Shown: positions 6,674 through 47,063 of the stretch, piece after piece
How the letters are laid out: every line of letters begins with the position of its first letter
Position numbering within the stretch: the stretch's first letter is position 1
IMG/VR virus record: IMGVR_UViG_3300047508_000198
Location: 1-64,000 of that record
Length of the DNA stretch: 64,000 nucleotides
From: a virus
Direction: 5' to 3' (one strand)
Position numbers and translations under genes: made by a program
Notes under the pieces: model-generated
Told to the model about the DNA's origin: nothing
Seen by the model: only the letters and a program-made list of their open reading frames with translations
Databases searched by the model: none

Positions 6674-7015
6674 TCAGGGAGTCACGACGTCCGAGGCGAA
6701 CAGCGCGGCCTTCGCGGCCGGGCTGATCGTGGAGTACTGGGCGTCGGACAGCACCACCACGGCGCTGGGGCCGTAGCGCAGCCCGTTGGGCAGCACGACA
6801 TCCTTGACGGTGCTCTTCAGCGTGATGGTGCGGGACACGTTCCCTCCTCCTGCGGTGTGCACCCCGGGGGCGGTGAGCAGCGTCGAGATGGCACGCGGGG
6901 TCAGCTGGCCGTACTCGTCATCGGTCAGCGTGACCACGGCCCCGGCCTGGTACCGGCTGCCGTTCGGCAGGCAGACATCCCGCTTCCCGGCGGCGATCGT
7001 CACTGCGTACGTCAT
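6674..7015 (-). CDS. Small virion-type protein with an internal duplication
   Basis: Two copies of DV.LPNG.RY...AVV.L.D..Y. Confidence 0.65.
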   Translation of the reverse strand: MTYAVTIAAGKRDVCLPNGSRYQAGAVVTLTDDEYGQLTPRAISTLLTAPGVHTAGGGNVSRTITLKSTVKDVVLPNGLRYGPSAVVVLSDAQYSTISPAAKAALFASDVVTP

Positions 7016-7029
7016 GTGCTATCTTCCTT
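7016..7029 (+). promoter_or_regulatory. Candidate extended -10 promoter for array 1
   Basis: GTGCTATCTTCCTT, identical to the 14-mer upstream of minus-strand genes at 1729-1742 and 3548-3561; points into the array. Confidence 0.55.
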
Positions 7030-7034
7030 AGTCA

Positions 7035-7868
7035 GAGTCATGGCCCGGCACGGCATGGCTCGCCTTTGGTGGCTCGGCGGTCACGGCAGCGCCCAGCGCG
7101 GATTGCATAGCGTGGCTTGGCCCGGCGAGGCAGTCAGGGACAGGCAGGGTCAGGCGAGGACGGGCCTGGCGGAGCACAGCGAGGCAAGGCAGTCCAGGCC
7201 CGGCTTGGGACGGAAAGGCTAGGCGTGGCTCGGCAAGGCCTGGCGCAGCCCGGCCCGGCTCGGCAGTCATGGCGAGGAATTGGCACGGCACGGCTAGGCG
7301 TGGCGTGGCAAGGCGTGGCCAGGCAGTCAGTGCTCGGCTGCTCTGGGCGTAGCTCGGAATGGCGACGCACAGCGGGGCTGTCAGGGAAGGGCGCGGCTCG
7401 GCAAAGGGGGCATAGCTCGGCGGCACATGGCCGTCGCGGTATTGCGTGGACGGCGAGGCGGCGCTGGGCGAGGCAGTCGCAGCATGTCCTGGACCGCGGG
7501 GCGGTGCGGCGCGCGGCTTGGCGGCGCGGCGCACGGCCTGGCACGGCAGTCGTGTCAAGGCCGGGCGGGTCACGGCAAGCCATGGCGAGGCCGGCTCGGC
7601 GAGGCCCGGCAAGGCCTGCGAGGGCGAGGCGCGGCCTGGCACGGCCGTCGAGGATTGGCTGGGTGCAGCTCGTCTCAGCACGGCATGGCGCGGGATGGCT
7701 TGGCAGTCAGCGCTGGGCATCGGCACGGGCAGCGTGGTCAGGCTGTCATCACGCGGCGTGGCTTGGCGAGGCGGGTCGGGTCTTGGCGAGGACCGGCATG
7801 GCTCGGCAGTCGTCGCAAGGCAAGGCTGCTCATGGCATGGCCTGGCCGGGCAGGCACAGGAGGCGGTC
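7035..7868 (+). repeat. GGC-NN pentamer array 1 (candidate guide-RNA array, about 14 units)
   Basis: 5-nt periodic GGCNN with GGC[ACGT]GTC separators at about 7076, 7129, 7188, 7262, 7322, 7376, 7429, 7472, 7545, 7643, 7702, 7741, 7805, 7862. Confidence 0.85.
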
Positions 7869-7893
7869 TCCATCGGGGGCACCGCCTCCTTTG
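7858..7893 (+). terminator. Hairpin closing array 1 (possibly bidirectional)
   Basis: AGGAGGCGGT (7858-7867) pairs with ACCGCCTCCT (7881-7890), followed by TT. Confidence 0.65.
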
Positions 7894-7903
7894 CCGTCCG
7901 GGC

Positions 7904-27392: not shown

Positions 27393-28958
27393 GACGGCCG
27401 CGCCATGCCGGGCCCTGCCTTGCCGATCCGAGCTGCGCCCTGACACTCCTAGCCCTGCGTGGACTGCCGAGCTGCGCCGTGCCCTGCCTTAAACGGCCCA
27501 GCCGCGCCATAACTGCCGAGCCGAGCCGAGCACGGACTAGCCAAGATAACCGAGCCGCGACGGCCGGGCCATGCCAAGCTGTGCCCAGTCAAGCCACGCG
27601 ATGACTGCCGAGCCATAACGCGCCCAGTCGAACCACGCCATGCGATGACTGCCTTGCTGTCCCGAGCTGATCCTTGACCAGCCGAGCGACGACGGCCTGG
27701 CCATCCCTGCCGAGCCTGGCCGGGCCTGGCCCTGAAGATCCGTGCCAAGCCGCGACGGCCACGCCCAGCCTCGCCAAGATCAGCCGCGCCCCGACTGCCA
27801 AGCACAGCCGCGCCGAACTGCGCTGTCCAAGTGAAGCACTGCCCTGCCTATCCGGCCATGCCGCGCGATGCCTTGCCTTGCTACCCGCGCTATCCGCGCC
27901 GCGCCTATCCAGCCAGGACCGGCGGCGCCATGCTACGCGATGCCTCACGACAGCACGCGATACCGCGCCAGCCATGCCATGCCGCGCCTCGCTATGCCGC
28001 CCGTGCGCTCCCAGGCCTAGCCATGACGGCCTGGCCATATCTGGCCATGCCACGCCTTGACCAGCCACGCACTGAACAGCCGTGCGCTAACTGCCTCGCC
28101 GCGCCGCGCCAAGACCGACCAGGCCTTGCCAAGCCGGGCCTTAACGGCCTCGCCATGCCCTGCCGTGCCTCGCCAAGCGATGCCTAGGCTGCCGTGCCGA
28201 GACGAGCCTGTCCCTGACGAGCCCGGCCTCACCTTGGCGGCCAAGCCAAGCCATGCCCAGCCTCGCCAAGCCTCGCGAGCCTGACCCCGCCCTATGCTGC
28301 CCTGGCGAACCCAGCCTGGACTGCCACGCCGTACCCAGCCGAGTCGCGCAGAGCCTTGCACCTCCTGCCACACCTGGCCGAGCGGCCCTCGCTGTCCCAG
28401 CCGGGCAACGCCTCGCCATGCGCCGACAGCCTTGCCGAGCCGAGCCGCACTCAGCGCAGCCCTGCCAACCCGATCCTGGCCCTGACGGCCGAGCCCAGCT
28501 GTGCCAAGCCGTGACTCGCCTCGCCAAACCCGGGGGCGCCATGCCATGACGGCCCTGCCGAGTTGCGCAATGCCGAGCGATCTGTGCCGCCCAAGCCAAC
28601 CATGCCTTCCGGCCTTGCCCAGCGCTCCATGCCGTACCCTCCATGACGGCCTTGCTGCGCACAGCCAGTCCATGCCAAGCCCCGCATCGCCTCGCCATGA
28701 CTGCGTTGCCCCGCCCGACCTGGACTGGACAGGCCTCGACTGCCTCGCCCGGCCTCGCCTAGCCTGGCCTTGACCCGCCATGCCTTGCGTCAACGGCCTT
28801 ACCCCGCCGGGACGGGCTCCGCTCCGCCTGGATCAGCCCCGCCTTGCCTCGACTGCCTCGCCTGGCCCGGCCTCGCCAAGCCGTCCTTGCCGGGCCTTGA
28901 CTGCCACGCCTTGCCATGCCGATCCGGAACGCGCCCAGCCTACGAAGCCGAGCCTTGG
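27393..28958 (-). repeat. GGC-NN pentamer array 2 (about 27-30 units)
   Basis: Plus strand reads NNGCC with GACTGCC/GACGGCC separators (27393, 27462, 27559, 27603, 27647, 27691, 27754, 27793 ... 28851, 28899); starts about 10 nt after the portal stop. Confidence 0.85.
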
Positions 28959-28968
28959 CTATCTAAGT

Positions 28969-31140
28969 TTATAGCACATCCTCGTCCGGCAGCTCGTCGC
29001 CCTCCTTGACGCCGAGCTTGCCGCGGACGCCCACCGTCCTCGGCGCCTTGTACTGAGGCGGGGCATCATGCGTCTCCCACTCGCGCACCTCCTGCAGCTG
29101 GCCGTCAGACCGGTAGACCGGGGTCTGGTGCTCCTCGTCCCCGTGCACCGGGTACGACCGCGCCTTCGCTGCCTCGCGGGTGCGGGCGGTGCGGCGGAAC
29201 AAGCTGGCCTCAGACGGCATGCCCTCGCGCTCCTCGTCGGACTCCTCCGGCCGGTCGGACTCCTCGCCGGGGCCGGGCTCCTCCTCGCCGCCCTCCTCCT
29301 CGCCCTCGGGCGGGGCCATCGGGTCCTCGCCCTCCATCTCGGCGTCCTCGGGCCCGGGGGCCAGCGCCAGCAGCGGCGGGCCGGGCTCGGTGCCCAGGCG
29401 GGGGATGGGCAGGCCGCCCATGGAAGCGCCTGCGGGCATGCCCTCGACCTGGGCGTAGGCACCGAAGTCGTCCTGCAGGTCCTGGGGGATCGGGTAGCCG
29501 CCGTCCTTCAGCGCGATGTAGGCCCGCTTGCGGGTGTCCTGCTCGGCGACGATCTGGTCCACCGCCTCGTCCTGGGACCGGGCGACCTCCTCGTCCAGGT
29601 CGATCTCCAGGTTCCGGGTCCGGGTGCGCTGGGAGATCGGGATGCCGGCGGCGCGCAGCGCCTCGATGAACTGGCGGGTCGCGTCCTCGTCCTTCAGGTT
29701 CAGCACCTGGAACTTGCGGTCGGGGACCAGCAGCTTGGGCTGCTCGACGAGATGCTTCTCGCCGGTCTCCTCGTCGGTCTCCAGCACCTCCTCCATGATC
29801 ACGTAGCGCTTGCCACCGTGCTCGCGGTAGGCGTAGTGCTCCTGGGCCTCGGCCACCACCAGGGCCCGCTGCCGGAAGTGCCGCGCCTGGAACTTCTGGT
29901 ACTTGGTCATCAGCATGGTGACCAGTTCCTTGTTCAGCGCGTCGGCCGCGTAGGTCTGGCCGGACTGGGCACCCATCAGGAACGTCCGGGACAGGCCGAA
30001 CACCTGCAGGATCGAGTCCTCGATCCGCTCGAAGTCGGGGGTCAGGTCGGGCATCTGCTCGCGGCCCAGCACCGGCAGCATCTCGACGGCGAAGTTGTAG
30101 ATCAGCGCGCGGAAGTCGCCGGCCAGGGCCGCGTCCAGGGCCAGCTCGAAGTTCTCCAGGTCGTCATCGGTGGGGATCCACGGCTGGGAGGTGCCCAGGT
30201 CGGTCGCCGAGGCGCCGAGCTTGCACAGGATCAGCGGCGTGTAGAGCCGGTCGGCGATCGAGTCCAGCGCGGTGTTGAGCATCTCCTTCTGCAGCATCGA
30301 GCGCATCGCCCGGGTCAGCAGCGGCACGCCGCGCACGTTGAACGTGTCGCCCCTGAACTTCAGCTGCTTCAGCAAGATGTTGCTCACCGGCATGAAGGTG
30401 TTCTCGGCCGTGTAGGCGGTCAGCTCGGGGTACTCCTGGACCAGCCGGTTGTACTCCCAGGCGGGCTGGCGGGTCTGCAGGATCTGCCGGATCGTCCAGG
30501 GCAGCCGGATGAAGAACCGCGGCTCCTTCAGGAACGGGCTGCGCTCGACCTTGACGTCATCGGGGTTGAGCAGCTCCTCGTCGTCCCAGATGCCGAGGTC
30601 CTCGTTGAACGTGGCGAAGCACCAGGCCTCGCCCGAGGTCCAGTACTCCCGGCCGATGTCGACGGTGAACTCCTCGTAGTCCAGGTGCTCCTCGCCGAAG
30701 AACAGGTCGCCGTAGAAGTCCTCCAGCCGGGAGTCCATGCACTCCAGGTGGTCGCCCATGGTCGGGAACTTGGAGAAGATGTCGACACACGAGCCGATGA
30801 TCGGGTCGGTCTGGTACAGCAGCCGGCAGAACGCCCGGACCTTGGCCAGCTCCTCGTTCTGGCTGAAGTCGTAGGGCAGGTTGTTCTGCCGCCAGTAGAA
30901 CAGCGGGTCGCGCGGGCGGCCGGTAGCGAACTGGATATCGCCGAACCCGCCGCCCGCTCCGCCCGCGCCCCCGGCACCGTACGCGGCAGTGCGCCGGTTG
31001 ACCGAGCGGTTCTTGCGGGCCTCGGCCACCTCGGCCGTCATGGACCCGTCCGCGGCCCCGTAGGCCAGCATCCGGCTCATCCCCTCGGAGACCCGGCGGT
31101 CGCGGTCGAGGGCGGCGGTGGCGCTGAACCTGACCTTCAC
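28969..31140 (-). CDS. Portal protein (cluster C-like)
   Basis: RPRDPLFYWRQNNLPYD...IADRLYTPLIL.KLG...ALDAALAGDFR resembles the cluster C portal as recalled; 723 aa. Confidence 0.85.
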   Translation of the reverse strand: MKVRFSATAALDRDRRVSEGMSRMLAYGAADGSMTAEVAEARKNRSVNRRTAAYGAGGAGGAGGGFGDIQFATGRPRDPLFYWRQNNLPYDFSQNEELAKVRAFCRLLYQTDPIIGSCVDIFSKFPTMGDHLECMDSRLEDFYGDLFFGEEHLDYEEFTVDIGREYWTSGEAWCFATFNEDLGIWDDEELLNPDDVKVERSPFLKEPRFFIRLPWTIRQILQTRQPAWEYNRLVQEYPELTAYTAENTFMPVSNILLKQLKFRGDTFNVRGVPLLTRAMRSMLQKEMLNTALDSIADRLYTPLILCKLGASATDLGTSQPWIPTDDDLENFELALDAALAGDFRALIYNFAVEMLPVLGREQMPDLTPDFERIEDSILQVFGLSRTFLMGAQSGQTYAADALNKELVTMLMTKYQKFQARHFRQRALVVAEAQEHYAYREHGGKRYVIMEEVLETDEETGEKHLVEQPKLLVPDRKFQVLNLKDEDATRQFIEALRAAGIPISQRTRTRNLEIDLDEEVARSQDEAVDQIVAEQDTRKRAYIALKDGGYPIPQDLQDDFGAYAQVEGMPAGASMGGLPIPRLGTEPGPPLLALAPGPEDAEMEGEDPMAPPEGEEEGGEEEPGPGEESDRPEESDEEREGMPSEASLFRRTARTREAAKARSYPVHGDEEHQTPVYRSDGQLQEVREWETHDAPPQYKAPRTVGVRGKLGVKEGDELPDEDVL

Positions 31141-37171: not shown

Positions 37172-37545
37172 ACGACCCACACGACAACCGCGAGGCCGAC
37201 GACGCGATCCTGCGGCGGCTGCAGGCCACCGAGGCCGAGCACGTCCGGCTGACCGCCGACGGCGAGCCCGACGGGTGCTTCTTCATCCCGGCCAAGCCGT
37301 GGAAGGACACCGGCAAGTGGGTGCCCAGCTGGGTCCGGCGTAACCAGCCCGGCCACACCCCGTTCGCGGGCAACGGCCCCTGCGCCGAGCCCTGGTACTG
37401 GGGCAGAAGCTACCAAGAGGCCCAGGAGACCGCCACCCGGGAGAACGCCAAGCTGGGCATCAGCCCGGTGCAGGCTGCCGCGATCATCCTGTCCAGCGTC
37501 CGGGCCTCCCGGCACGTCGGTACCGAAGCGGACTTCACCTCATGA
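37168..37545 (+). CDS. Hypothetical protein
   Basis: ATGA coupling. Confidence 0.55.
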   Translation: MNDPHDNREADDAILRRLQATEAEHVRLTADGEPDGCFFIPAKPWKDTGKWVPSWVRRNQPGHTPFAGNGPCAEPWYWGRSYQEAQETATRENAKLGISPVQAAAIILSSVRASRHVGTEADFTS

Positions 37546-38198
37546 CCGGCGAGCACCGGCCCGACAGCCCGCTGTGCCGGTACTGCTGGCGGCACATCTT
37601 CATCGAGGGCCTGGGCCGGCACTCCGGCCAGTGGATCCTGGTCATGAAGGAGTACGACCACACCGAGTGCTGCGACGCCCGCGGCGACGGGGCCGTGCTG
37701 TCCACCCTGCCGCACGTGCCTTGCGAGGTGCAGGCCGTCACCATCGAGCGGCTGATCGAGCTGGCCGCCCGGGAGATCAGCGTGCCGGGCAGCTTCCGGG
37801 ACACCGACATGGCCCATGACGCCGCGCTGGTCTGGCTGATCACCGCGGCGGCCGGACTGAGCCGCGAGGACGAGGACTACGTGTTCGCGGCGATCATGCG
37901 GGCCGCCTACGACACCCGCGGCCGGGACTTCCAGAAGGCCGCCTACCGGTACCGGGCGCTGGATCCCTGGGACCAGTACTGGCAGGCGCGCAAGCGCCAG
38001 CTGGCGCTGGACCGGGACCTCCCGCCGGTCATTACCCGGCAGGAGTCCGACGCGCGCATGACGGCCTGGGTGGCCGCCGGGCGCCTCGGCCACGAGTTCA
38101 CCCGGCCGGGCGAGACGCTGTGCCGCATCTGCGGCAGCCGCATAGACGGCATCCAGCACAATGAGGAAAGGTGGCCCCGCGATGGCCAGCCCCGTTAG
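37542..38198 (+). CDS. Hypothetical protein
   Basis: ATGA coupling; CxxC motifs. Confidence 0.55.
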   Translation: MTGEHRPDSPLCRYCWRHIFIEGLGRHSGQWILVMKEYDHTECCDARGDGAVLSTLPHVPCEVQAVTIERLIELAAREISVPGSFRDTDMAHDAALVWLITAAAGLSREDEDYVFAAIMRAAYDTRGRDFQKAAYRYRALDPWDQYWQARKRQLALDRDLPPVITRQESDARMTAWVAAGRLGHEFTRPGETLCRICGSRIDGIQHNEERWPRDGQPR

Positions 38199-38705
38199 CC
38201 GCACCCCGCTGACCGGGCAGCCGCTGGAGCAGCCCGACCCGCCGCCGCTGCGGGTAAACGCGGTTTTCGACAAGGACCAGCCCTGCACCGAGCACCATGC
38301 CCCGTTCACCGGGGACATCCCCTGCACGGGCGTGCTGCGGTGCACGCTGTGCCTGACCGAGTGGGACCCGGACACCGGGCGCCTGCTGCCGCCCAGGAGG
38401 GCCGTGTGATGCCGACCGGACCCGAGCACTACGCCCTGTCCGAGGGGCACCTGGCGCAGGCCCGCGAGCACCACGACGTCCGCCCGGAGGAATCAGCCTG
38501 GCACCAGCGCCAAGCCGCGGTGCACGCCGAGCTGGCCCTGGTCGCCTGGCACGCCGCGGGCATCTTCGACCGCTCCGGCTGGATGAAGGCCACCATCACC
38601 GTGCCCGCGGATCCCGGGCCAGAGGGACCGCCGAGGGTCCACGACATCCACGGCGGGCCCGGGGAAGACTGCTGGTGCGGCTATGTCGGCCACTGAAGGA
38701 CGGCC

Positions 38706-42293: not shown

Positions 42294-43403
42294 CTACAGC
42301 ACGGCCAGCTCTGCTGCCTCGCCGAGCATCCCGGCCCCGGCAGCAGCCCCGCCGCCGGCGCCGGGAATCTTGTTGATCAGGGCCTTGCCCAGGCCGTACT
42401 CGCCCAGGCCCATGCCGTGGCCGCCGTCCCCGCCGCTGTCGCCGGGACTGGCGTTAGTGCCCGCGCTGGGCGCCCAGGGCTCGTCGCTTATCACGCTGCT
42501 GGCCATGTCGGCCTGGCGCAGGTAGGAGCCGACCACGCGGCGCGCCACCCGGCGGCACTCCGACGGCGCCAGGTACGGGTTGGAGGCCTGCACCGTGGCA
42601 GCGACCGCCTCGACCTGACGGCGCACCGGGTCCTTGCGCGCGGCCGTGACGGCCTGGTCGGGCGTCGTGTCGTACCCGGCCGTGCCGGTGCCGCCCTGCA
42701 GCCCGGTGCCCGCTGACGTCGCCTGGGTGCCCGACTGCAGGCCGCCGGGCTTCATGCCGTCCGGGGTCGAGGTCGCGCCGCCCACGCCCGCGGGCAGGCC
42801 CGCGCTCATCGGCGCACCGGAAGGCGGCGAGCCCGAGGTCACGTCCGCGGTCGCGCGCATGCACAGGCAGGCGCCCGGCTTGTCCTTGCAGCTCTTGCAC
42901 CGGCCGCTCTTCTTGGTGAGCCTGCTGCCGCACCGGCACAGGCCCGCGGTGGCGCCCATCTCCGGCGCCGGGATCTCGGGAGCCTGCGGGGTGACCACCT
43001 GGGGCGCCGGGCCGCCAGGAGCGCCCTGGGGGATCTCGGCGTAGCCGTGGCTGTAGTCCGGGCCCTCGTCGTGCTCGTAGCCCTCAGCGGGCCCTGAGCC
43101 GAAGCTCTGGCCGGCCTGCAGCACCGGGGCCACCGGGTCGACACCCTCGGGCAGCGCCTCCTTCAGCAGGGCGTAGCGGCGCCGGGCGGTCTCTTCCAGC
43201 TCCTCGGCGGGCAGGCCGCACGCGGCGGCTACCCGCTCGATCCGCTCGGCCGCAAAGGCCAGCCGGTGCTCCAGCTCGCGAGCCGAGCGGGACTGGAACA
43301 GGAACGCGTAGACCGGCAGCATCTCGGCGTCGGCCCGGTCCAGGCTTGCCTCGCGCGCCTCCAGGTCGTGATCGGCGCTCGCCTCGTGCCACAAATCCGA
43401 CAT
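42294..43403 (-). CDS. Putative head-associated structural protein (369 aa)
   Basis: GGGAGG RBS; candidate late motif upstream; RQA/TA linker motifs. Confidence 0.65.
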   Translation of the reverse strand: MSDLWHEASADHDLEAREASLDRADAEMLPVYAFLFQSRSARELEHRLAFAAERIERVAAACGLPAEELEETARRRYALLKEALPEGVDPVAPVLQAGQSFGSGPAEGYEHDEGPDYSHGYAEIPQGAPGGPAPQVVTPQAPEIPAPEMGATAGLCRCGSRLTKKSGRCKSCKDKPGACLCMRATADVTSGSPPSGAPMSAGLPAGVGGATSTPDGMKPGGLQSGTQATSAGTGLQGGTGTAGYDTTPDQAVTAARKDPVRRQVEAVAATVQASNPYLAPSECRRVARRVVGSYLRQADMASSVISDEPWAPSAGTNASPGDSGGDGGHGMGLGEYGLGKALINKIPGAGGGAAAGAGMLGEAAELAVL

Positions 43404-43440
43404 GCTCTGCCTCCCTGGGCGTCCTACTTCTTCCCAGGGG

Positions 43441-45509
43441 GCAGAGCCATGCCTGCCGCGCCATGCACTGCCGATCTATGCCGAGAGCCGCCATACGATG
43501 CCGAGACGGCCACGCCATGCCGAGCCTTGCCGGTCCTTGCGAGGCCGCGCCGTGCGATGACTGCCACGCCTCACCCAGCCCCGCTTCGCCTCTCCAGGCA
43601 AGGGATGCCATGCGGCGACTGCCGGGCCTGGCCGGGCCGTGCCATACCGAGCGATGACTGCCGGGCCTGGCCTAGCCATGCTGCGCCCTGCCTGGACTGG
43701 ACAGGCCACGCCGAGACTGCCATGCAACGCCGGGCCCAGCTGCGACTAGCCGGGCCTAGACAGGACTGCCAGGCCAAGCCCACCGTTGCCACGCCACGCG
43801 TGTCCGGCCTGGCCATGCCGAGCCGTACCCTGACACGCCTAGCCAACCGAGCCCTGCCGTGCCTCGACTGCCCAGCCCGGCCTTGCCCAGACGTCAATGC
43901 CAAACCTAGCCAGGCGGGCCGTAGCCTGCCGAGCAAAGCTGTGCTGCGCCTACGCTAGCCGAGCCGAGCCCTGCCTAGACCGCCCGGCCAGGCCACGCCG
44001 TGCCCAGCACTGGCTAGCCGTGCCCGGACAAGCCGCGACCGTCCATGCCCCGACTGCCTCGCCGAGTCATGCCTCACCCGGCCGCGCCCTGCGCTGACTG
44101 CCCCGCAACGCCTATCCCAGCCATCCCGCGCCGCGACGGCCTCGCTGAGACGAGCCTCGCTATGCCGCGCCCTGCGCTAACTGCCTCACCTCGATTTGAC
44201 GCGCCTGGCCCCGCCGAGCCACGCCGTCCCTTGACTGCCAGGCCACGCCGTACCCTGACTAGCCCAGACGGGCCTCGCCTTGCCTCGACTGCCGTGCCAC
44301 GCCCCGCCTAGCAAAGCACACGATGCCCCGCGATGCGCCGACTGCCCTGCCTTCCGTGCCGGGCCGAGCATCCCGGGCCCAGCCATTCCGAGCCCCGCGT
44401 TGCGACGACTGCCCGGCTAAGCCAGGCCTTGCAACGCCGGTCCTTGCCAGGCCTCTCCCGGCCTGGCCCAGACTGCCTTGCCGAGCCAGGCCCCGCCGAG
44501 CTGCGCCTACCCTGGCCTAGCCAATCCAGCCATGCCGAGCCGAGCCGCGCCAAGCCAAGATTGGCCTAGCCCTGACTGCCGGGCCAAGCCACGCGACGAC
44601 ATACTGCGCCCTGACCTGACTGCCTGGCTGAGCCGTACCGAGCCAGGCCGGACCATGCCTCGACTGCCGAGCCACGCCATGACCTGGCTGCCGATCCTCG
44701 CCTGGACGCGCTGCGCCGTAGGTAGCCCGGCCTGTCCATGGCAGCCGAACCGGGCTGTGCCGCGCCTAGCCACTCGGTGCCCCGCGCCGCCTCGACTGCC
44801 GCGCCTAGCCACGCCTTGCCTAATCACCCATGCCGCGCCGCGCCACGACGGCCGGACCATACTGCGCCGTCCATGCTGGGCAACACCGGGCTGTGCCGCA
44901 CGATGCCCTGACTGCCTGGCCGAGCCGTGAAGCCCCTGCTTCGCCTTGACGGCCGAGACCGGCCGAGCCATGCACTGACTACAACGCCGCGCCTTGACTG
45001 CTGTGCCAAGCCTTGCCCTGCCCGGACAAGCCACCCGATGCCTTGACTGCCTCACCACACCTTGCCTCGCCCAGCCTTCCCAGACCGCGCCTTGACTGCC
45101 GTGCCGGGCGACGCTATCCAAGCCATGCCCTGCTCAGCCAACCCAGGCCGAGCCTTGACGGCCTCGCCCCGCTGTACGAACAGCACCATGCGCCGACGGC
45201 CACGCCGAGCCGGGCTGCTCCGGGCCAAGCAACGACCAGCCCTGAGCTGCCAAGACTGCCCTGCCTAGCCGCGCAAAGCCACTCCTTGCCCCGCCTCGCC
45301 GCGAGACACCACGCGACGCCGAGACTGCCGCGCTAAGCCAAACCACGCCCGTCCCAGCGGTCGATGCTTCGCCATGCCTTGACGGCCCTGCACTGCCGCA
45401 CCCCGACCAGCCCAGACTGGCCTCGCCCAGGCTGGCCGGGCCTGGACTGCCTGGCCGCGCCAGGCCGCGCCGTGACGCAACCAGCCACGTCACGGCCCGG
45501 CCTGACGGC
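43441..45509 (-). repeat. GGC-NN pentamer array 3 (about 35-40 units), directly downstream of the Cas7-like operon
   Basis: Same grammar; separators at about 43505, 43559, 43617, 43656, 43715, 43764 ... 44233, 44287, 44574, 44618, 44662 ... 45445, 45504. Confidence 0.88.
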
Positions 45510-45986
45510 TTAGGCCTCGTCGCCAACGGCGAGAGGGCCGTCATCTTCCTCGACATCCATGGTCCGGCGGACCATGGCGATGAACTCGCTGAACATGCGG
45601 TAGCGGCGCTGCATGTTCCGCCAGTCCACTTCCATCTGGCGCCGCACCTGGGCGGTCAGCACCTCATCCCGCTGGATCTCGTCCAGCGGCACGTACGAGC
45701 GCCCCGGCACGCCAGCGGCGTGCACCGAGTGGAACACCCGGATGGACTGCACCTCACTGCGCTTGTCGATGTACTGCTCGCGCACCACGCGAACCAGCTG
45801 CCGGGCCTGCTGCAGCCGGTACTTGCGCGCGGCGACATCGTTGTTCCACTCGAACCGGCTGTGCAGCGGGTGACCCTCGGCGGCGGCGGCCGAGACAATG
45901 GCCGCCGCCGTCAGGATGCCGCCGTTCTCCTCGCGGATCTGCAGCAGCTCGGTTTCGAGCTGGCTAGGAGCCTGATCCGGCGCCAT
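45510..45986 (-). CDS. Accessory protein coupled to the Cas7-like gene (158 aa)
   Basis: GILTAAAIV.AA....HPLHSRFEWNNDVAARKYRLQQARQL resembles a phage family of unknown function; overlaps the Cas7-like stop by 23 nt. Confidence 0.75.
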   Translation of the reverse strand: MAPDQAPSQLETELLQIREENGGILTAAAIVSAAAAEGHPLHSRFEWNNDVAARKYRLQQARQLVRVVREQYIDKRSEVQSIRVFHSVHAAGVPGRSYVPLDEIQRDEVLTAQVRRQMEVDWRNMQRRYRMFSEFIAMVRRTMDVEEDDGPLAVGDEA

Positions 45987-46956
45987 CGCCGGCCTCAGCA
46001 GCCATCGCAGCGCGGTCCTCCGCGGTCAGGCCGCGGTCGGGACCGGGCTCCTTGTCCTTGACCGGCTTGGCCTCGGGCTCGGGCTCGGGCTCCTCGGCCA
46101 GGACCTCCGGCGGGGCGTCCAGCTCGGCGAAGTCGTCCATCGTCAGATGGTCTTCCTCGCCGTAGACGTCGTAGTCCACCGAGTCCAGCAGGTACATCGG
46201 GTCCAGCTCGCGGACCACGGTGACGGCGTTGCGGCCGTCGGCGATCCGGAACGTGCCGAATTCCCCGTTCCGCTCGGGCCGCCACTCGCCGACGCCGACA
46301 TTGCCGCCGCCCGCCTCGATCAGCGAGACCACCGAGTCCCGCTCCAGCAGGTTGGAGGTGTAGCCCACCATCAAGGTGGCGCTCCACCGGTAGAAGCAGC
46401 CGCGGTACCGCAGGTCCGCGGGGTGGTTGACGCCGGCCAGGCGCACGTAGTCCTCGCGCATCCGGGGGCGGCCGTCGAGCACGACCATCCGGCCGGCCTC
46501 GCTCGGCACGCTGACGCCGTAGAACGTCAGGAACTGGCGAAGCTCGGTCATCTTCACCTGCTTGCCCCAGAACCGCCCGGCCCCGATAGTCGCCATCTTG
46601 AAGGCCATGGCGGGCAGGCCGAACAGCACCTCCTCGGTCGCCGGGTCGACGCCCGCACGGTAGAGGCTGGCCAGGTACTCGCGGTGCGGGTCACGCTTCT
46701 CCGGCTGGCGCTTCTTGCCCTGCTGGGCGGCCAGCATCTGGGCCTTGGCCTTCTCGGAGAACCGGCTGACGATCAGCGGCGCGGTGCCGATGATCCGGAT
46801 GGCGAGCAGCTCCTGCCGGATCGGCTTGATGGTCAGCGCCGCGGCCGGAGCCGGGGCAGATGCCGTCGTGCGCCGCTTGACGGCTGGCTTGGCGTCGGCT
46901 CCGTTCGTACCGGTGGCGGTAGCCGCCGGGTCATCCTTAACCTGTGTTCCAGGCAT
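45964..46956 (-). CDS. Stand-alone Cas7/RAMP-like RNA-binding protein (330 aa)
   Basis: RAMP motif order: IRIIGTAPLIV, GLPAMAFKMA helix, thumb-like REDYVRL...DLRYR, WSATLMVGY, and Gly-rich loop GGNVGVGEWRPERNGEFGTF; GAGGAGGG RBS. Confidence 0.7.
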   Translation of the reverse strand: MPGTQVKDDPAATATGTNGADAKPAVKRRTTASAPAPAAALTIKPIRQELLAIRIIGTAPLIVSRFSEKAKAQMLAAQQGKKRQPEKRDPHREYLASLYRAGVDPATEEVLFGLPAMAFKMATIGAGRFWGKQVKMTELRQFLTFYGVSVPSEAGRMVVLDGRPRMREDYVRLAGVNHPADLRYRGCFYRWSATLMVGYTSNLLERDSVVSLIEAGGGNVGVGEWRPERNGEFGTFRIADGRNAVTVVRELDPMYLLDSVDYDVYGEEDHLTMDDFAELDAPPEVLAEEPEPEPEAKPVKDKEPGPDRGLTAEDRAAMAAEAGDGAGSGS

Positions 46957-47034: not shown

Positions 47035-47063
47035 ACACTATACTTACGAGCACGCACTGTCAA
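47035..47063 (-). promoter_or_regulatory. SigA-type promoter of the Cas7-like operon
   Basis: TTGACA (47063-47058)-17 nt-TAGTGT (47040-47035); a second TTGACA on the plus strand (47032) makes an inverted repeat; 5' UTR hairpin at 46991-47024. Confidence 0.7.

What the first reader, a model, noticed from the sequence alone, without database searches (positions are those of the whole stretch)
27393..28958. Array grammar: unit length is quantised at 5n+4 nt and the information sits in the NN dinucleotides
Seen: separator spacings in array 2 include 44, 44, 44, 39, 44, 64, 54, 44, 49, 59, 64, 54, 39, 54, 59. Array 1 gives 59, 74, 54, 59, 39, 64 and array 3 gives 54, 39, 59, 49, 44, with occasional 1-nt slips. 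This equals a 9-nt GGCAGTC-NN element plus 6-13 pentamers. One clean unit (7188-7261) reads NN = CA CC TT AC AA TA GT TC AA CT GC CC CC TC. Inference: slippage would homogenise NN, so a kept register with diverse NN implies selection on a code. GGCAGTC is a likely processing or handle site. A 2-read/1-skip code would ignore codon wobble positions and resist synonymous escape.
Basis: partly seen in the sequence, partly recalled or inferred. Interest (0 to 1): 0.88.

Follow-up and report, generated by a model that had tools for sequence, protein, structure and literature searches.

The report
Phage VIPR guide-RNA arrays (staggered type)

Summary
Observation confirmed. The window is the first 64 kb of an 84,944-bp, 70% GC phage genome. 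It holds three arrays of GGC-NN pentamers (about 7040-7897 +, 27393-28958 -, 43404-45511 -). A fourth, small array lies outside the window. Of 117 register breaks, 111 are 4-nt steps (GGCA or GGCC, then GTC), which gives unit lengths of 5n+4. The GGC positions carry 0.83-1.09 bits of entropy and the NN positions 1.98 bits.

The gene at 45964-46956 (-) is a homologue of the solved SUSP1 Vipr protein (profile E = 1.2e-6), and the GGY-contacting residues are conserved. A partner gene and array 3 follow it on the same strand. In the other loci parsed, 612 of 614 guides lie on the vipr strand, and GGCA is the usual boundary.

This matches the "staggered vrRNA arrays" of VIPR systems (bioRxiv 10.64898/2026.04.26.720920), in which NN pairs with DNA and every third base is skipped. 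It is a new member of a known kind. This scan already holds 641 VIPR-type notes on other DNA.

Three guides in related loci hit other vipr genes under the 1-nt-skip rule. For this phage's own guides I found only leads. One 20/20 match lies in a Nudix hydrolase gene of Streptosporangiaceae MAGs and is not separable from chance.

The parts
27393..28958 (-). Array 2, the finding itself: GGC-NN pentamers read on the minus strand. It holds 38 in-phase runs, 22 of them with 7 or more pentamers, separated mostly by a 4-nt step (GGCA or GGCC) followed by GTC. These are candidate staggered vrRNAs.
28950..28980 (-). Promoter-like element at the 5' end of array 2, lying over the portal gene's stop codon. 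It has a TGn-extended -10-like motif (ATGTGCTAT ... CTTAG) followed by GATAGCC[AG]AGGC.
   Evidence: The 9-mer occurs 3 times in the genome, two of them at array starts. The strict sigma-70 scan found nothing.
7040..7897 (+). Array 1: the same grammar read on the plus strand, opposite to both flanking genes. It has 22 runs, 13 of them with 7 or more pentamers.
7014..7035 (+). Promoter-like element at the 5' end of array 1, with the same ATGTGCTAT ... CTTAG motif as array 2.
7858..7895 (+). Strong hairpin followed by UUUG at the 3' end of array 1 (terminator-like).
   Evidence: -30.1 kcal/mol, z = -4.18, 0 of 200 shuffles fold as well.
43404..45511 (-). Array 3: the largest array, with 53 runs, 32 of them with 7 or more pentamers. 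It starts directly after the vap stop codon on the same strand as vipr and vap.
43385..43450 (-). Strong hairpin at the 3' end of array 3.
   Evidence: -34.9 kcal/mol, z = -4.45, 0 of 200 shuffles fold as well.
45964..46956 (-). The vipr gene (330 aa). The core, residues about 40-245, is homologous to SUSP1 Vipr. It carries low-complexity N- and C-terminal extensions.
   Evidence: GC3 is 0.92.
45510..45986 (-). Candidate vap (vipr-accessory) gene, 158 aa. It overlaps the end of vipr.
   Evidence: phrog_15946. A homologue is found in 131 of 150 loci that hold a vipr homologue, in most of them within about 200 nt downstream of vipr. No Pfam or PDB match.
47035..47063 (-). TTGACA-17-TAGTGT promoter-like site upstream of vipr (approximate coordinates).
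   Evidence: Read. It was not called by the strict scan because the second hexamer matches only 3 of 6.

Best explanation
The arrays are vrRNA (guide RNA) arrays of a phage-encoded VIPR system of the 'staggered' architecture. They are transcribed in the GGC sense. Array 3 is co-transcribed with vipr-vap. Arrays 1 and 2, and array 4 at genome 84,490-84,690, have their own promoter-like elements. By homology with SUSP1 Vipr, one Vipr protomer binds each pentamer, sequestering G-G-Y and exposing the two N. A run of 7-14 in-phase pentamers makes one helical filament, and its exposed NN pair with double-stranded DNA while skipping every third target base. The 4-nt step (GGCA|GTC), where the last G of one unit is the first G of the next, shifts the register by -1. 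This ends one filament and starts the next, and it is why unit lengths are 5n+4. Binding is expected to silence the target gene, most likely in competing phages or prophages, and possibly in the host. Shown here: the grammar, the protein homology, the synteny and the strand rule. Inferred from the published system: filament assembly, the 1-nt-skip read-out and silencing. Unknown: what this phage's roughly 70 guides target and how the units are cut apart.
For: (1) The grammar and its statistics are. (2) Entropy is 0.83-1.09 bits at the G, G and C positions and 1.98 bits at each N. No two guides share more than 79% of NN. (3) P0001 matches PDB 36pp 'SUSP1 Vipr protein' at E = 0.0055 as a single sequence and 1.2e-6 as a 42-sequence profile. 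SUSP1 residues R138, D177, W178 and R179, which hold G1, G2 and Y3 (preprint .720927 section 5), align to R185, E224, W225 and R226, all invariant in alignment A1. (4) In the 149 other loci parsed (two brought in by DNA similarity to the array, 80 viral and 67 genomic that encode a relative of P0001), guides of 8 or more pentamers were found in about 100. Of these guides, 612 of 614 lie on the vipr strand, and 467 of 652 run ends are the 4-nt step GGCA. (5) Array 1 is inverted relative to its flanking genes, yet it carries the same 5' motif as array 2 and a 3' hairpin. Orientation therefore follows the RNA, not the neighbouring genes. (6) Under the 1-nt-skip rule only, 3 of 518 guides from related loci match vipr genes of other loci at 90% or better: 26/28, 19/20 and 18/20. 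All three have the skipped base on the codon wobble position, and none of 1554 shuffles reaches 90%. (7) The preprint describes GGY/NN vrRNAs, vipr+vap loci, staggered arrays with 1-nt overlap, and no self-targeting. Here no guide self-targets above shuffles.
Against: There are no RNA data, so transcription, unit ends and Vipr binding are not shown. The sequence match to SUSP1 Vipr covers only the C-terminal 55-65 residues, and SUSP1 H17 appears to align to a Ser in a weak alignment. For this phage's own guides no rule beat the controls. Mean best match was 0.794, 0.804, 0.800 and 0.800 for skips 0 to 3, and 1 of 57 guides exceeded all 30 shuffles against 1.8 expected. In the whole-locus cross-test the count of hits at 0.9 or better under skip 1 was only 5, against 4 for skip 0, and two skip-3 hits at 0.9 or better in the vipr-only database were not examined. 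Only 57% of internal triplets are exact GGC (422 of 745), so part of the arrays may be decayed. Adjacent identical NN are in modest excess.
Confidence: 0.9

Rival explanations
1. Non-functional tandem repeat: a GGCNN microsatellite-like tract expanded by slippage and decaying neutrally.
For: Adjacent identical NN are in excess (68 against 50.4 +/- 6.8). Only 57% of internal triplets are exact GGC. No target was proven for this phage's guides.
Against: Neutral decay would erode all five positions alike, but entropy is about 1 bit at GGC and 1.98 bits at NN. The -1 register step recurs 111 times of 117. The arrays follow a vipr homologue, on its strand, in unrelated phages and prophages (612 of 614 guides). 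NN is 47.8% GC in a 70% GC genome.
Confidence: 0.03
2. A DNA-level element: an array of protein-binding sites (centromere-like or packaging-related, for example for the phage's ParB-like modules) or G-quadruplex/i-motif-prone DNA that acts without being a guide.
For: GG-N3 spacing could form two-tetrad quadruplexes (my inference, not tested). First-stage notes report ParB-like modules in the genome (unchecked).
Against: The strand rule relative to vipr, the promoter-like 5' ends and the hairpin 3' ends in the GGC sense fit an RNA product. A binding-site array needs no hypervariable NN and no -1 register step.
Confidence: 0.04
3. Protein-coding repeat, such as a pentapeptide-type or Gly/Ala-rich repeat protein.
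For: ORFs of 100-258 aa can be drawn across the arrays.
Against: None of these ORFs passes the GC3 > 0.85 frame test that every neighbouring gene passes. A 5-nt period with -1 shifts every 40-70 nt cannot keep a reading frame.
Confidence: 0.01
4. A CRISPR array or another catalogued RNA family.
For: The modular repeat-plus-variable layout, next to a RAMP-like gene.
Against: No Rfam family reaches its gathering score anywhere in the window. There are no 25-40-nt direct repeats, and the period is 5 nt.
Confidence: 0.01

Closest known systems
VIPR systems with staggered vrRNA arrays (bioRxiv 10.64898/2026.04.26.720920; Results and the fig. S18 legend, read)
   Same: A vipr gene plus an accessory gene, with downstream GGY/NN pentamer arrays on the same strand. 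Successive vrRNAs overlap by 1 nt, which is exactly the 5n+4 grammar seen here. The system is phage-borne.
   Different: The junction here is GGCA|GTC, where most relatives I parsed have GGCA|GGC. There are four arrays spread over the genome, three of them 17-38 kb from vipr. Vipr carries N- and C-terminal extensions (330 aa against about 210). The figure itself and the type tables were not visible, so the type (I-VII) cannot be assigned.
Type II VIPR of Escherichia phage SUSP1 / Pseudomonas fulva prophage (same preprint; structures in .720927; PDB 36pp)
   Same: A homologous effector with conserved GGY-contact residues, the GGY/NN code and a vap partner.
   Different: SUSP1 has four vrRNAs of about 100 nt, each with a conserved 3' tail and pseudoknot. 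Here units abut with no room for a tail, and there are about 70 units of 7 or more pentamers. Sequence similarity is confined to the C-terminal third of the core.
Class 1 CRISPR Cas7 (RAMP) filaments on crRNA
   Same: One RAMP protomer per fixed RNA step, with thumb-induced periodic unpaired bases (as described in the preprints).
   Different: There is no repeat-spacer array, no cas genes and no adaptation genes. The step is 5 nt with 3 guide bases flipped and 1 target base skipped, not 6 nt with 1 flipped.
Loci in cultured actinophages: Cluster F-type mycobacteriophages (Quico, Philus, Saal and others) and Gordonia phages (ODay, Pipp, UmaThurman, Ecliptus)
   Same: They hold a Vipr homologue (39-50% identity). 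In the mycobacteriophages a roughly 240-bp GGC-NN array with GGCA|GGC junctions lies next to it.
   Different: A single short array lies upstream of vipr in the early lytic operon, and the genes are annotated only as hypothetical. The cluster name is my recollection and comes from no call.

Membership tests
VIPR system | A Vipr protein (a RAMP homologue outside any CRISPR-cas context) encoded at the locus | tested here: met
   P0001 against PDB 36pp 'SUSP1 Vipr protein': phmmer E = 0.0055 and profile E = 1.2e-6. R138, D177, W178 and R179 of SUSP1 align to the invariant R185, E224, W225 and R226. No cas genes or CRISPR repeats are present.
VIPR system | RAMP fold: RRM core, glycine-rich loop and thumb | not testable with these tools
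Only the G-loop motif (GVGEWRP) and the thumb Arg are seen by alignment. The ESM Atlas neighbours are unnamed viral proteins of 195-211 aa (TM 0.86-0.91).
VIPR system | vrRNA locus: tandem Y-NN-GG / GGY-NN pentamers (4 or more units) with a conserved GGY and hypervariable NN | tested here: met
   866 pentamers fall in 121 in-phase runs. Entropy is 0.83-1.09 bits at GGC and 1.98 bits at NN.
VIPR system | Array adjacent to vipr and on its strand | tested here: met
   Array 3 starts at the vap stop codon on the vipr strand. In the other loci parsed, 612 of 614 guides are on the vipr strand.
VIPR system | vipr-accessory (vap) gene | tested here: inconclusive
   A conserved 158-aa partner gene is found in 131 of 150 loci, mostly just downstream of vipr. 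Its relation to the published vap1-6 cannot be checked because the supplements are closed, and it has no Pfam or PDB match.
VIPR system | vrRNAs expressed and bound by Vipr | not testable with these tools
   There are no RNA or protein data. Only promoter-like 5' ends and 3' hairpins were seen.
VIPR system | NN specify a DNA target with one base skipped per pentamer | tested here: inconclusive
   In the clade, 3 of 518 guides hit other vipr genes at 0.9 or better under skip 1, all wobble-phased, with 0 of 1554 shuffles reaching that level. For this phage there was no excess over controls. There is one 20/20 hit in a Nudix gene, at a search depth where about 1-3 chance hits are expected.
VIPR, staggered-array architecture | Successive vrRNAs share 1 nt, so the register shifts by -1 at each boundary | tested here: met
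   111 of 117 boundaries are 4-nt steps. Spacings are congruent to 4 mod 5 in 36 of 69 cases.
VIPR type II (SUSP1-like) | Each vrRNA ends in a conserved structured 3' tail or pseudoknot of about 40-60 nt | tested here: not met
   Units abut, and only GGCA|GTC lies between runs. No conserved inter-unit sequence is long enough for a tail.
CRISPR array | Direct repeats of about 25-40 nt alternating with spacers; cas genes | tested here: not met
   No such repeats in the TRF output and no Rfam CRISPR family.

The most novel reading that the evidence does not exclude
This phage deploys an unusually dispersed VIPR arsenal. About 70 guides sit in four separately promoted arrays that make up 5.6% of the genome, one of them directly behind the portal gene. 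At least part of the arsenal may be aimed at host chromosomal genes rather than at rival phages. The guide at 7593-7642 spells, 20 of 20 informative bases and in codon phase, the 3' end of a Nudix hydrolase gene of Streptosporangiaceae and related MAGs. A second guide (28491-28550) matches 21 of 24 bases at the 3' end of an ORF in the same MAG. First-stage notes say the phage carries many ADP-ribosyltransferase-like and Nudix modules. If so, silencing a host Nudix enzyme would be a case of RNA-guided host takeover.
Probability: 0.1. Interest if true: 0.6.

Novelty: new member of a known kind. Interest (0 to 1): 0.3.

Why it matters
The finding independently re-derives the grammar of VIPR guide arrays and adds a complete 85-kb high-GC actinophage with a large, dispersed guide set. 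Two side results have practical value. First, the same vipr-plus-array cassette is present in cultured, genetically tractable mycobacteriophages and Gordonia phages, where its function could be tested directly. Second, in this Vipr clade the first guide after vipr often targets the conserved 3' end of other vipr genes, which fits VIPR-against-VIPR conflict. Neither result changes the known mechanism.

Tried and rejected
Local target scans for this phage's guides. I ran mismatch-tolerant scans under skip 0 to 3 with shuffled-NN controls, with all arrays masked.
- Against 82 loci plus the phage's own genome (1.3 Mb), there was no difference between rules.
- Against the phage's own genome, the number of 57 guides exceeding all 40 shuffles was 0, 0, 2 and 0 for skips 0 to 3.
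- Against 150 vipr genes, 1 of 71 guides reached p <= 0.01. It lay across a vipr stop and vap start and was not wobble-phased, so I rejected it.
- Against 230 loci (2.65 Mb), 1 of 57 guides exceeded all 30 shuffles, against 1.8 expected.

Exact xNN scans of public collections.
- Viral contigs, 9-NN cores of five long guides: one hit in all. It was in a 304-aa ORF that looked capsid-like to me (unchecked). Its flanks matched 2 of 10 bases and it has no relative in this phage, so I judged it chance.
- Genome contigs, the 10-NN core of guide 43985-44054: 0 hits.
- Full guide 28096-28145: 3 hits. Two lie in non-genic short ORFs and one in a roughly 1030-aa P-loop protein of Georgenia. I judged this chance level.
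- Full guide 7593-7642: 4 hits. Three are orthologous Nudix genes and one is an unrelated Nitrospirae ORF. I kept this only as a lead.

Whole-genome pattern searches.
- Guide 7192-7261 at up to 3 mismatches: 0 of 5 genomes and 0 of 401 genomes of the class sample drawn around handle G001 (Streptomyces caeni).
- Guide 7593-7642 at up to 3 mismatches in 121 genomes of the family sample drawn around G406 (a Streptosporangiaceae MAG): 38 places against 12 for the backwards control. Only one place had 0 mismatches and two had 2 mismatches.
- Eight guides of 12 or more NN against the four candidate host genomes: 1 hit (21/24) and 0 control hits.

Other tests.
- No guide is shared with other loci above the shuffled level (top real 0.93 over 7 NN against 0.88 for the null).
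- The strict sigma-70 and terminator scans found nothing useful.
- There are no tRNA genes.
- Quico gp56 is not a Vipr; gp57 is.

They may already list this phage clade or the mycobacteriophage loci. The main texts do not contain 'actino', 'mycobacteri' or 'streptomyces'.
Full report
WHAT IS THERE. The window is bases 1-64000 of a single 84,944-bp contig with 70.3% GC. It is a tailed-phage genome. The ORF at 28969-31140 (-) is a portal protein, about 35% identical to portals of Gordonia, Rhodococcus and Mycobacterium phages. A GC3 frame test gives a clean gene map. Most genes are on the minus strand, with a plus-strand block at about 32-42 kb.

Three stretches have no ORF that passes that test: about 7040-7897, 27393-28958 (the finding) and 43404-45511. 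A fourth, short stretch lies at 84,490-84,690, outside the window. All four are built from GGC-NN pentamers. The GGC sense is the plus strand for the first stretch and the minus strand for the other three. Together they cover 4,733 bp, or 5.6% of the genome.

CHECK OF THE OBSERVATION. GGCAGTC occurs 42 times against 17.6 +/- 3.8 expected, and 39 of the 42 lie in the three arrays.

I parsed each array with a dynamic program that rewards GGY every 5 nt and penalises a 4-nt and a 6-nt step equally.
- It returned 121 in-phase runs holding 866 pentamers.
- Of the 117 internal boundaries, 111 are 4-nt steps, one is 6 nt, three are 3 nt, one is 7 nt and one is 8 nt.
- The 4-nt steps are GGCA 52 times, GGCC 22 times, GGCT 8 times and others 29 times. 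P = 2e-32 for 4 nt against 6 nt.
- The next triplet is GTC in 65 runs.

A unit is therefore GTC-NN, then (GGC-NN)k, then GGCA, with the following G shared. Its length is 5n+4.

Separator-to-separator spacings are congruent to 4 mod 5 in 36 of 69 cases. They are congruent to 3 mod 5 in 19 of 69, which corresponds to two units with one degenerate separator. Within the finding's coordinates the unit lengths are 14-64 nt, all 5n+4, with 44 (6 times) and 29 (7 times) the commonest. Run lengths peak at 8 and 10 pentamers, and 71 runs have 7 or more.

IS THE NN DIVERSITY MORE THAN DECAY? Entropy is 1.09, 0.83 and 0.93 bits at the G, G and C positions and 1.98 bits at each N. NN is 47.8% GC in a 70% GC genome, and all 16 dinucleotides occur (26 to 87 times each). 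No two guides of 8 or more pentamers share more than 79% of their NN.

Against a purely 'written' code, adjacent identical NN are somewhat too frequent (68 against 50.4 +/- 6.8, P = 0.007). Only 422 of 745 internal triplets are exact GGC. Some duplication and some decay are therefore present.

WHAT IT IS. [quoted passage not shown] I read its outline, Results, four Methods sections and figure legends.

The preprint describes VIPR systems as follows.
- They hold a Vipr protein (a stand-alone RAMP), an accessory vap gene and vrRNAs made of GGY/NN pentamers.
- The NN pair with dsDNA while one target base per pentamer is skipped. In natural targets the skipped base is usually the wobble position.
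- There are seven types. [quoted passage not shown] S18 legend). That is the 5n+4 grammar found here.

A companion preprint (.720927; outline and sections 5-6 read) gives the structural basis. One protomer binds each repeat. G1 is held by H17 and D177. G2 is held by R138 and W178. Y3 sits in a pocket that includes R179.

MEMBERSHIP TESTS. The gene at 45964-46956 (-) encodes P0001, 330 aa.
- It has no Pfam family but matches phrog_4652 (E = 3.6e-29).
- It has at least 1374 homologues, mostly about 210 aa, from phages, metagenomes and some actinomycete genomes.
- Against PDB sequences its only hit below E = 0.1 is 36pp, 'SUSP1 Vipr protein'. E is 0.0055 for the single sequence and 1.2e-6 for a 42-sequence profile.
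- The aligned stretch places SUSP1 R138, D177, W178 and R179 on R185, E224, W225 and R226, which are invariant in my alignment.
- The alignment covers only the C-terminal 55-65 residues of the core. The weak N-terminal alignment puts a Ser where SUSP1 has H17.
The ESM Atlas gave only unnamed viral neighbours.

The 158-aa gene that overlaps the end of vipr (P0002, phrog_15946) has a homologue in 131 of 150 loci that hold a vipr homologue, in most of them just downstream of vipr. Array 3 begins at its stop codon.

Comparative evidence is strong. I fetched 80 viral and 67 genomic loci that encode a relative of P0001, and two mycobacteriophage loci found by DNA similarity to the array. Guides of 8 or more pentamers were found in 102 loci, counting this phage. 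Of those guides, 612 of 614 are on the vipr strand, and the commonest run end is the 4-nt step GGCA, 467 of 652. In most relatives the next triplet is GGC, whereas this phage uses GTC. Arrays of up to 3.9 kb occur elsewhere (L030), so the size of these arrays is not exceptional.

TRANSCRIPTION UNITS (inferred). Array 3 follows vipr-vap, which has a TTGACA-17-TAGTGT site upstream. Arrays 1 and 2 each start just after the motif ATGTGCTAT...CTTAG, a TGn-extended -10-like element. That 9-mer occurs only three times in the genome. The third copy, at genome 68,355, is not followed by an array. Arrays 2 and 4 also share GATAGCC[AG]AGGC at their start.

Arrays 1 and 3 end in strong hairpins (z = -4.2 and -4.45). 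Array 2 does not (z = -0.5). Array 1 reads opposite to both neighbouring genes, so its orientation is set by its own signals. The tool's strict sigma-70 scan found none of these sites.

DOES THE 1-NT-SKIP CODE HOLD IN THIS CLADE? I parsed guides from all fetched loci and scanned them against the same loci with arrays masked.
- In a database of 150 vipr genes, 3 of 518 guides reach a 0.9 or better NN match under skip 1. None do under skip 0 or skip 2, and two do under skip 3 (not examined). None of 1554 shuffles does under any rule.
- The three hits are 26/28 (L017 to the vipr of a Streptomyces caeni contig, antisense), 19/20 (L016 to L015) and 18/20 (L025 to L017).
- Each of these guides is the first one after its own vipr gene. 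Two of them target the codons just after the GEWRP G-loop motif. In all three the skipped base is the wobble base.
- In the whole 2.7-Mb database the count at 0.9 or better is 5 for skip 1, 4 for skip 0, none for skips 2 and 3, and 1 and 0 for two shuffle sets. The support therefore rests on where the top hits fall, not on the counts.

TARGETS OF THIS PHAGE'S OWN GUIDES. No self-targets were found, which agrees with the preprint. There was no excess in any local scan.

Exact scans of public collections gave one chance-like viral hit. They also gave a 20/20 in-phase match for the guide at 7593-7642. The match is at the last codons of a Nudix hydrolase gene (PF00293, E = 1.8e-10) in two Streptosporangiaceae MAGs and one other actinomycete MAG. 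The proteins compared from two of these MAGs are 84% identical. The same scan also returned one unrelated hit.

A second full guide gave three unrelated hits in the same collection. About 1-3 chance hits per 20-base pattern are therefore expected, and the three Nudix hits count as one event.

In high-GC coding DNA a 50% GC pattern can hardly match except in codon phase, so the phase adds little. The site is not conserved across the family: 1 of 121 genomes matches with 0 mismatches and 2 of 121 with 2 mismatches. Of eight further long guides tested against the four candidate genomes, one matched 21/24, in the same MAG at the end of an unannotated 117-aa ORF. No control pattern matched. I treat this as a lead only.

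CULTURED RELATIVES. A tblastn search of P0001 against 50,697 phage records found 36 records: 27 Mycobacterium, 5 Gordonia, 3 Pseudomonas and 1 cyanophage. The records listed among the 22 with DNA similarity to array 2 recur in that set. In phage Quico a roughly 240-bp GGC-NN array lies between gp56 and the Vipr homologue gp57, in the early lytic operon.

VERDICT. This is a new member of a known kind. The scan's own notebook already lists 641 VIPR-type findings in at least 423 genomes. What remains open is what these guides target and how staggered units are separated.

Noticed in passing
L001 2470-2710 (Mycobacterium phage Quico, record 37310-37523) and record 37686-38285: Cultured mycobacteriophages (Quico, Florinda, Philus, Saal, BobaPhett and others) carry a roughly 240-bp GGC-NN array next to a Vipr homologue (39.5% identity). 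Gordonia phages ODay, Pipp, UmaThurman and Ecliptus have closer homologues (about 49-50%). All are annotated as hypothetical proteins. This offers a tractable model for VIPR in actinobacteria. In Philus, gp52 is annotated across both the Vipr homologue and part of the array, so its annotated start is probably too far upstream.
   Followed up: partly
L017 7170, L016 10620, L025 10689 (first guide after vipr in each locus): In several related loci the first guide downstream of vipr matches the conserved 3' part of vipr genes of other systems (26/28, 19/20 and 18/20, all wobble-phased). This suggests VIPR-against-VIPR targeting in this clade.
   Followed up: yes
window 7593-7642 (+); L233 1047-1075, L232 258-286, L231 555-583: One guide spells 20 of 20 informative bases of the C-terminal codons of a Nudix hydrolase gene in Streptosporangiaceae and other actinomycete MAGs. 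The statistics cannot separate this from chance at the depth searched, but it may be a clue to the host.
   Followed up: partly
window 7014-7035 (+), 28957-28979 (-); genome 68355 (+, outside the window): A recurring motif, CGTCATGTGCTAT-N-TTCC-Y-TAG, occurs three times in the genome. Two copies are at array starts. Two copies overlap the ATG of a divergent minus-strand gene. It is probably a phage promoter type of the extended -10 kind.
   Followed up: partly
genome 84,490-84,690 (-), outside the window: A fourth small GGC-NN array (6 runs, 3 of them with 7 or more pentamers) lies near the right genome end. It has the same GATAGCC[AG]AGGC start as array 2 and a hairpin plus T-run at its 3' end.
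   Followed up: partly
window 45964-46956 (-), residues 1-40 and 250-330: This Vipr carries a basic Ala/Pro/Thr-rich N-terminal extension and an acidic Glu/Pro-rich C-terminal extension. Both are absent from the roughly 210-aa homologues. The closest relatives (62-82% identity) share the longer form.
   Followed up: no
L030 10734-14658 (IMGVR_UViG_3300043313_001352): A related viral contig has a 3.9-kb GGY-NN array (390 pentamers in exact runs) directly after its vipr gene, larger than any single array here.
   Followed up: no
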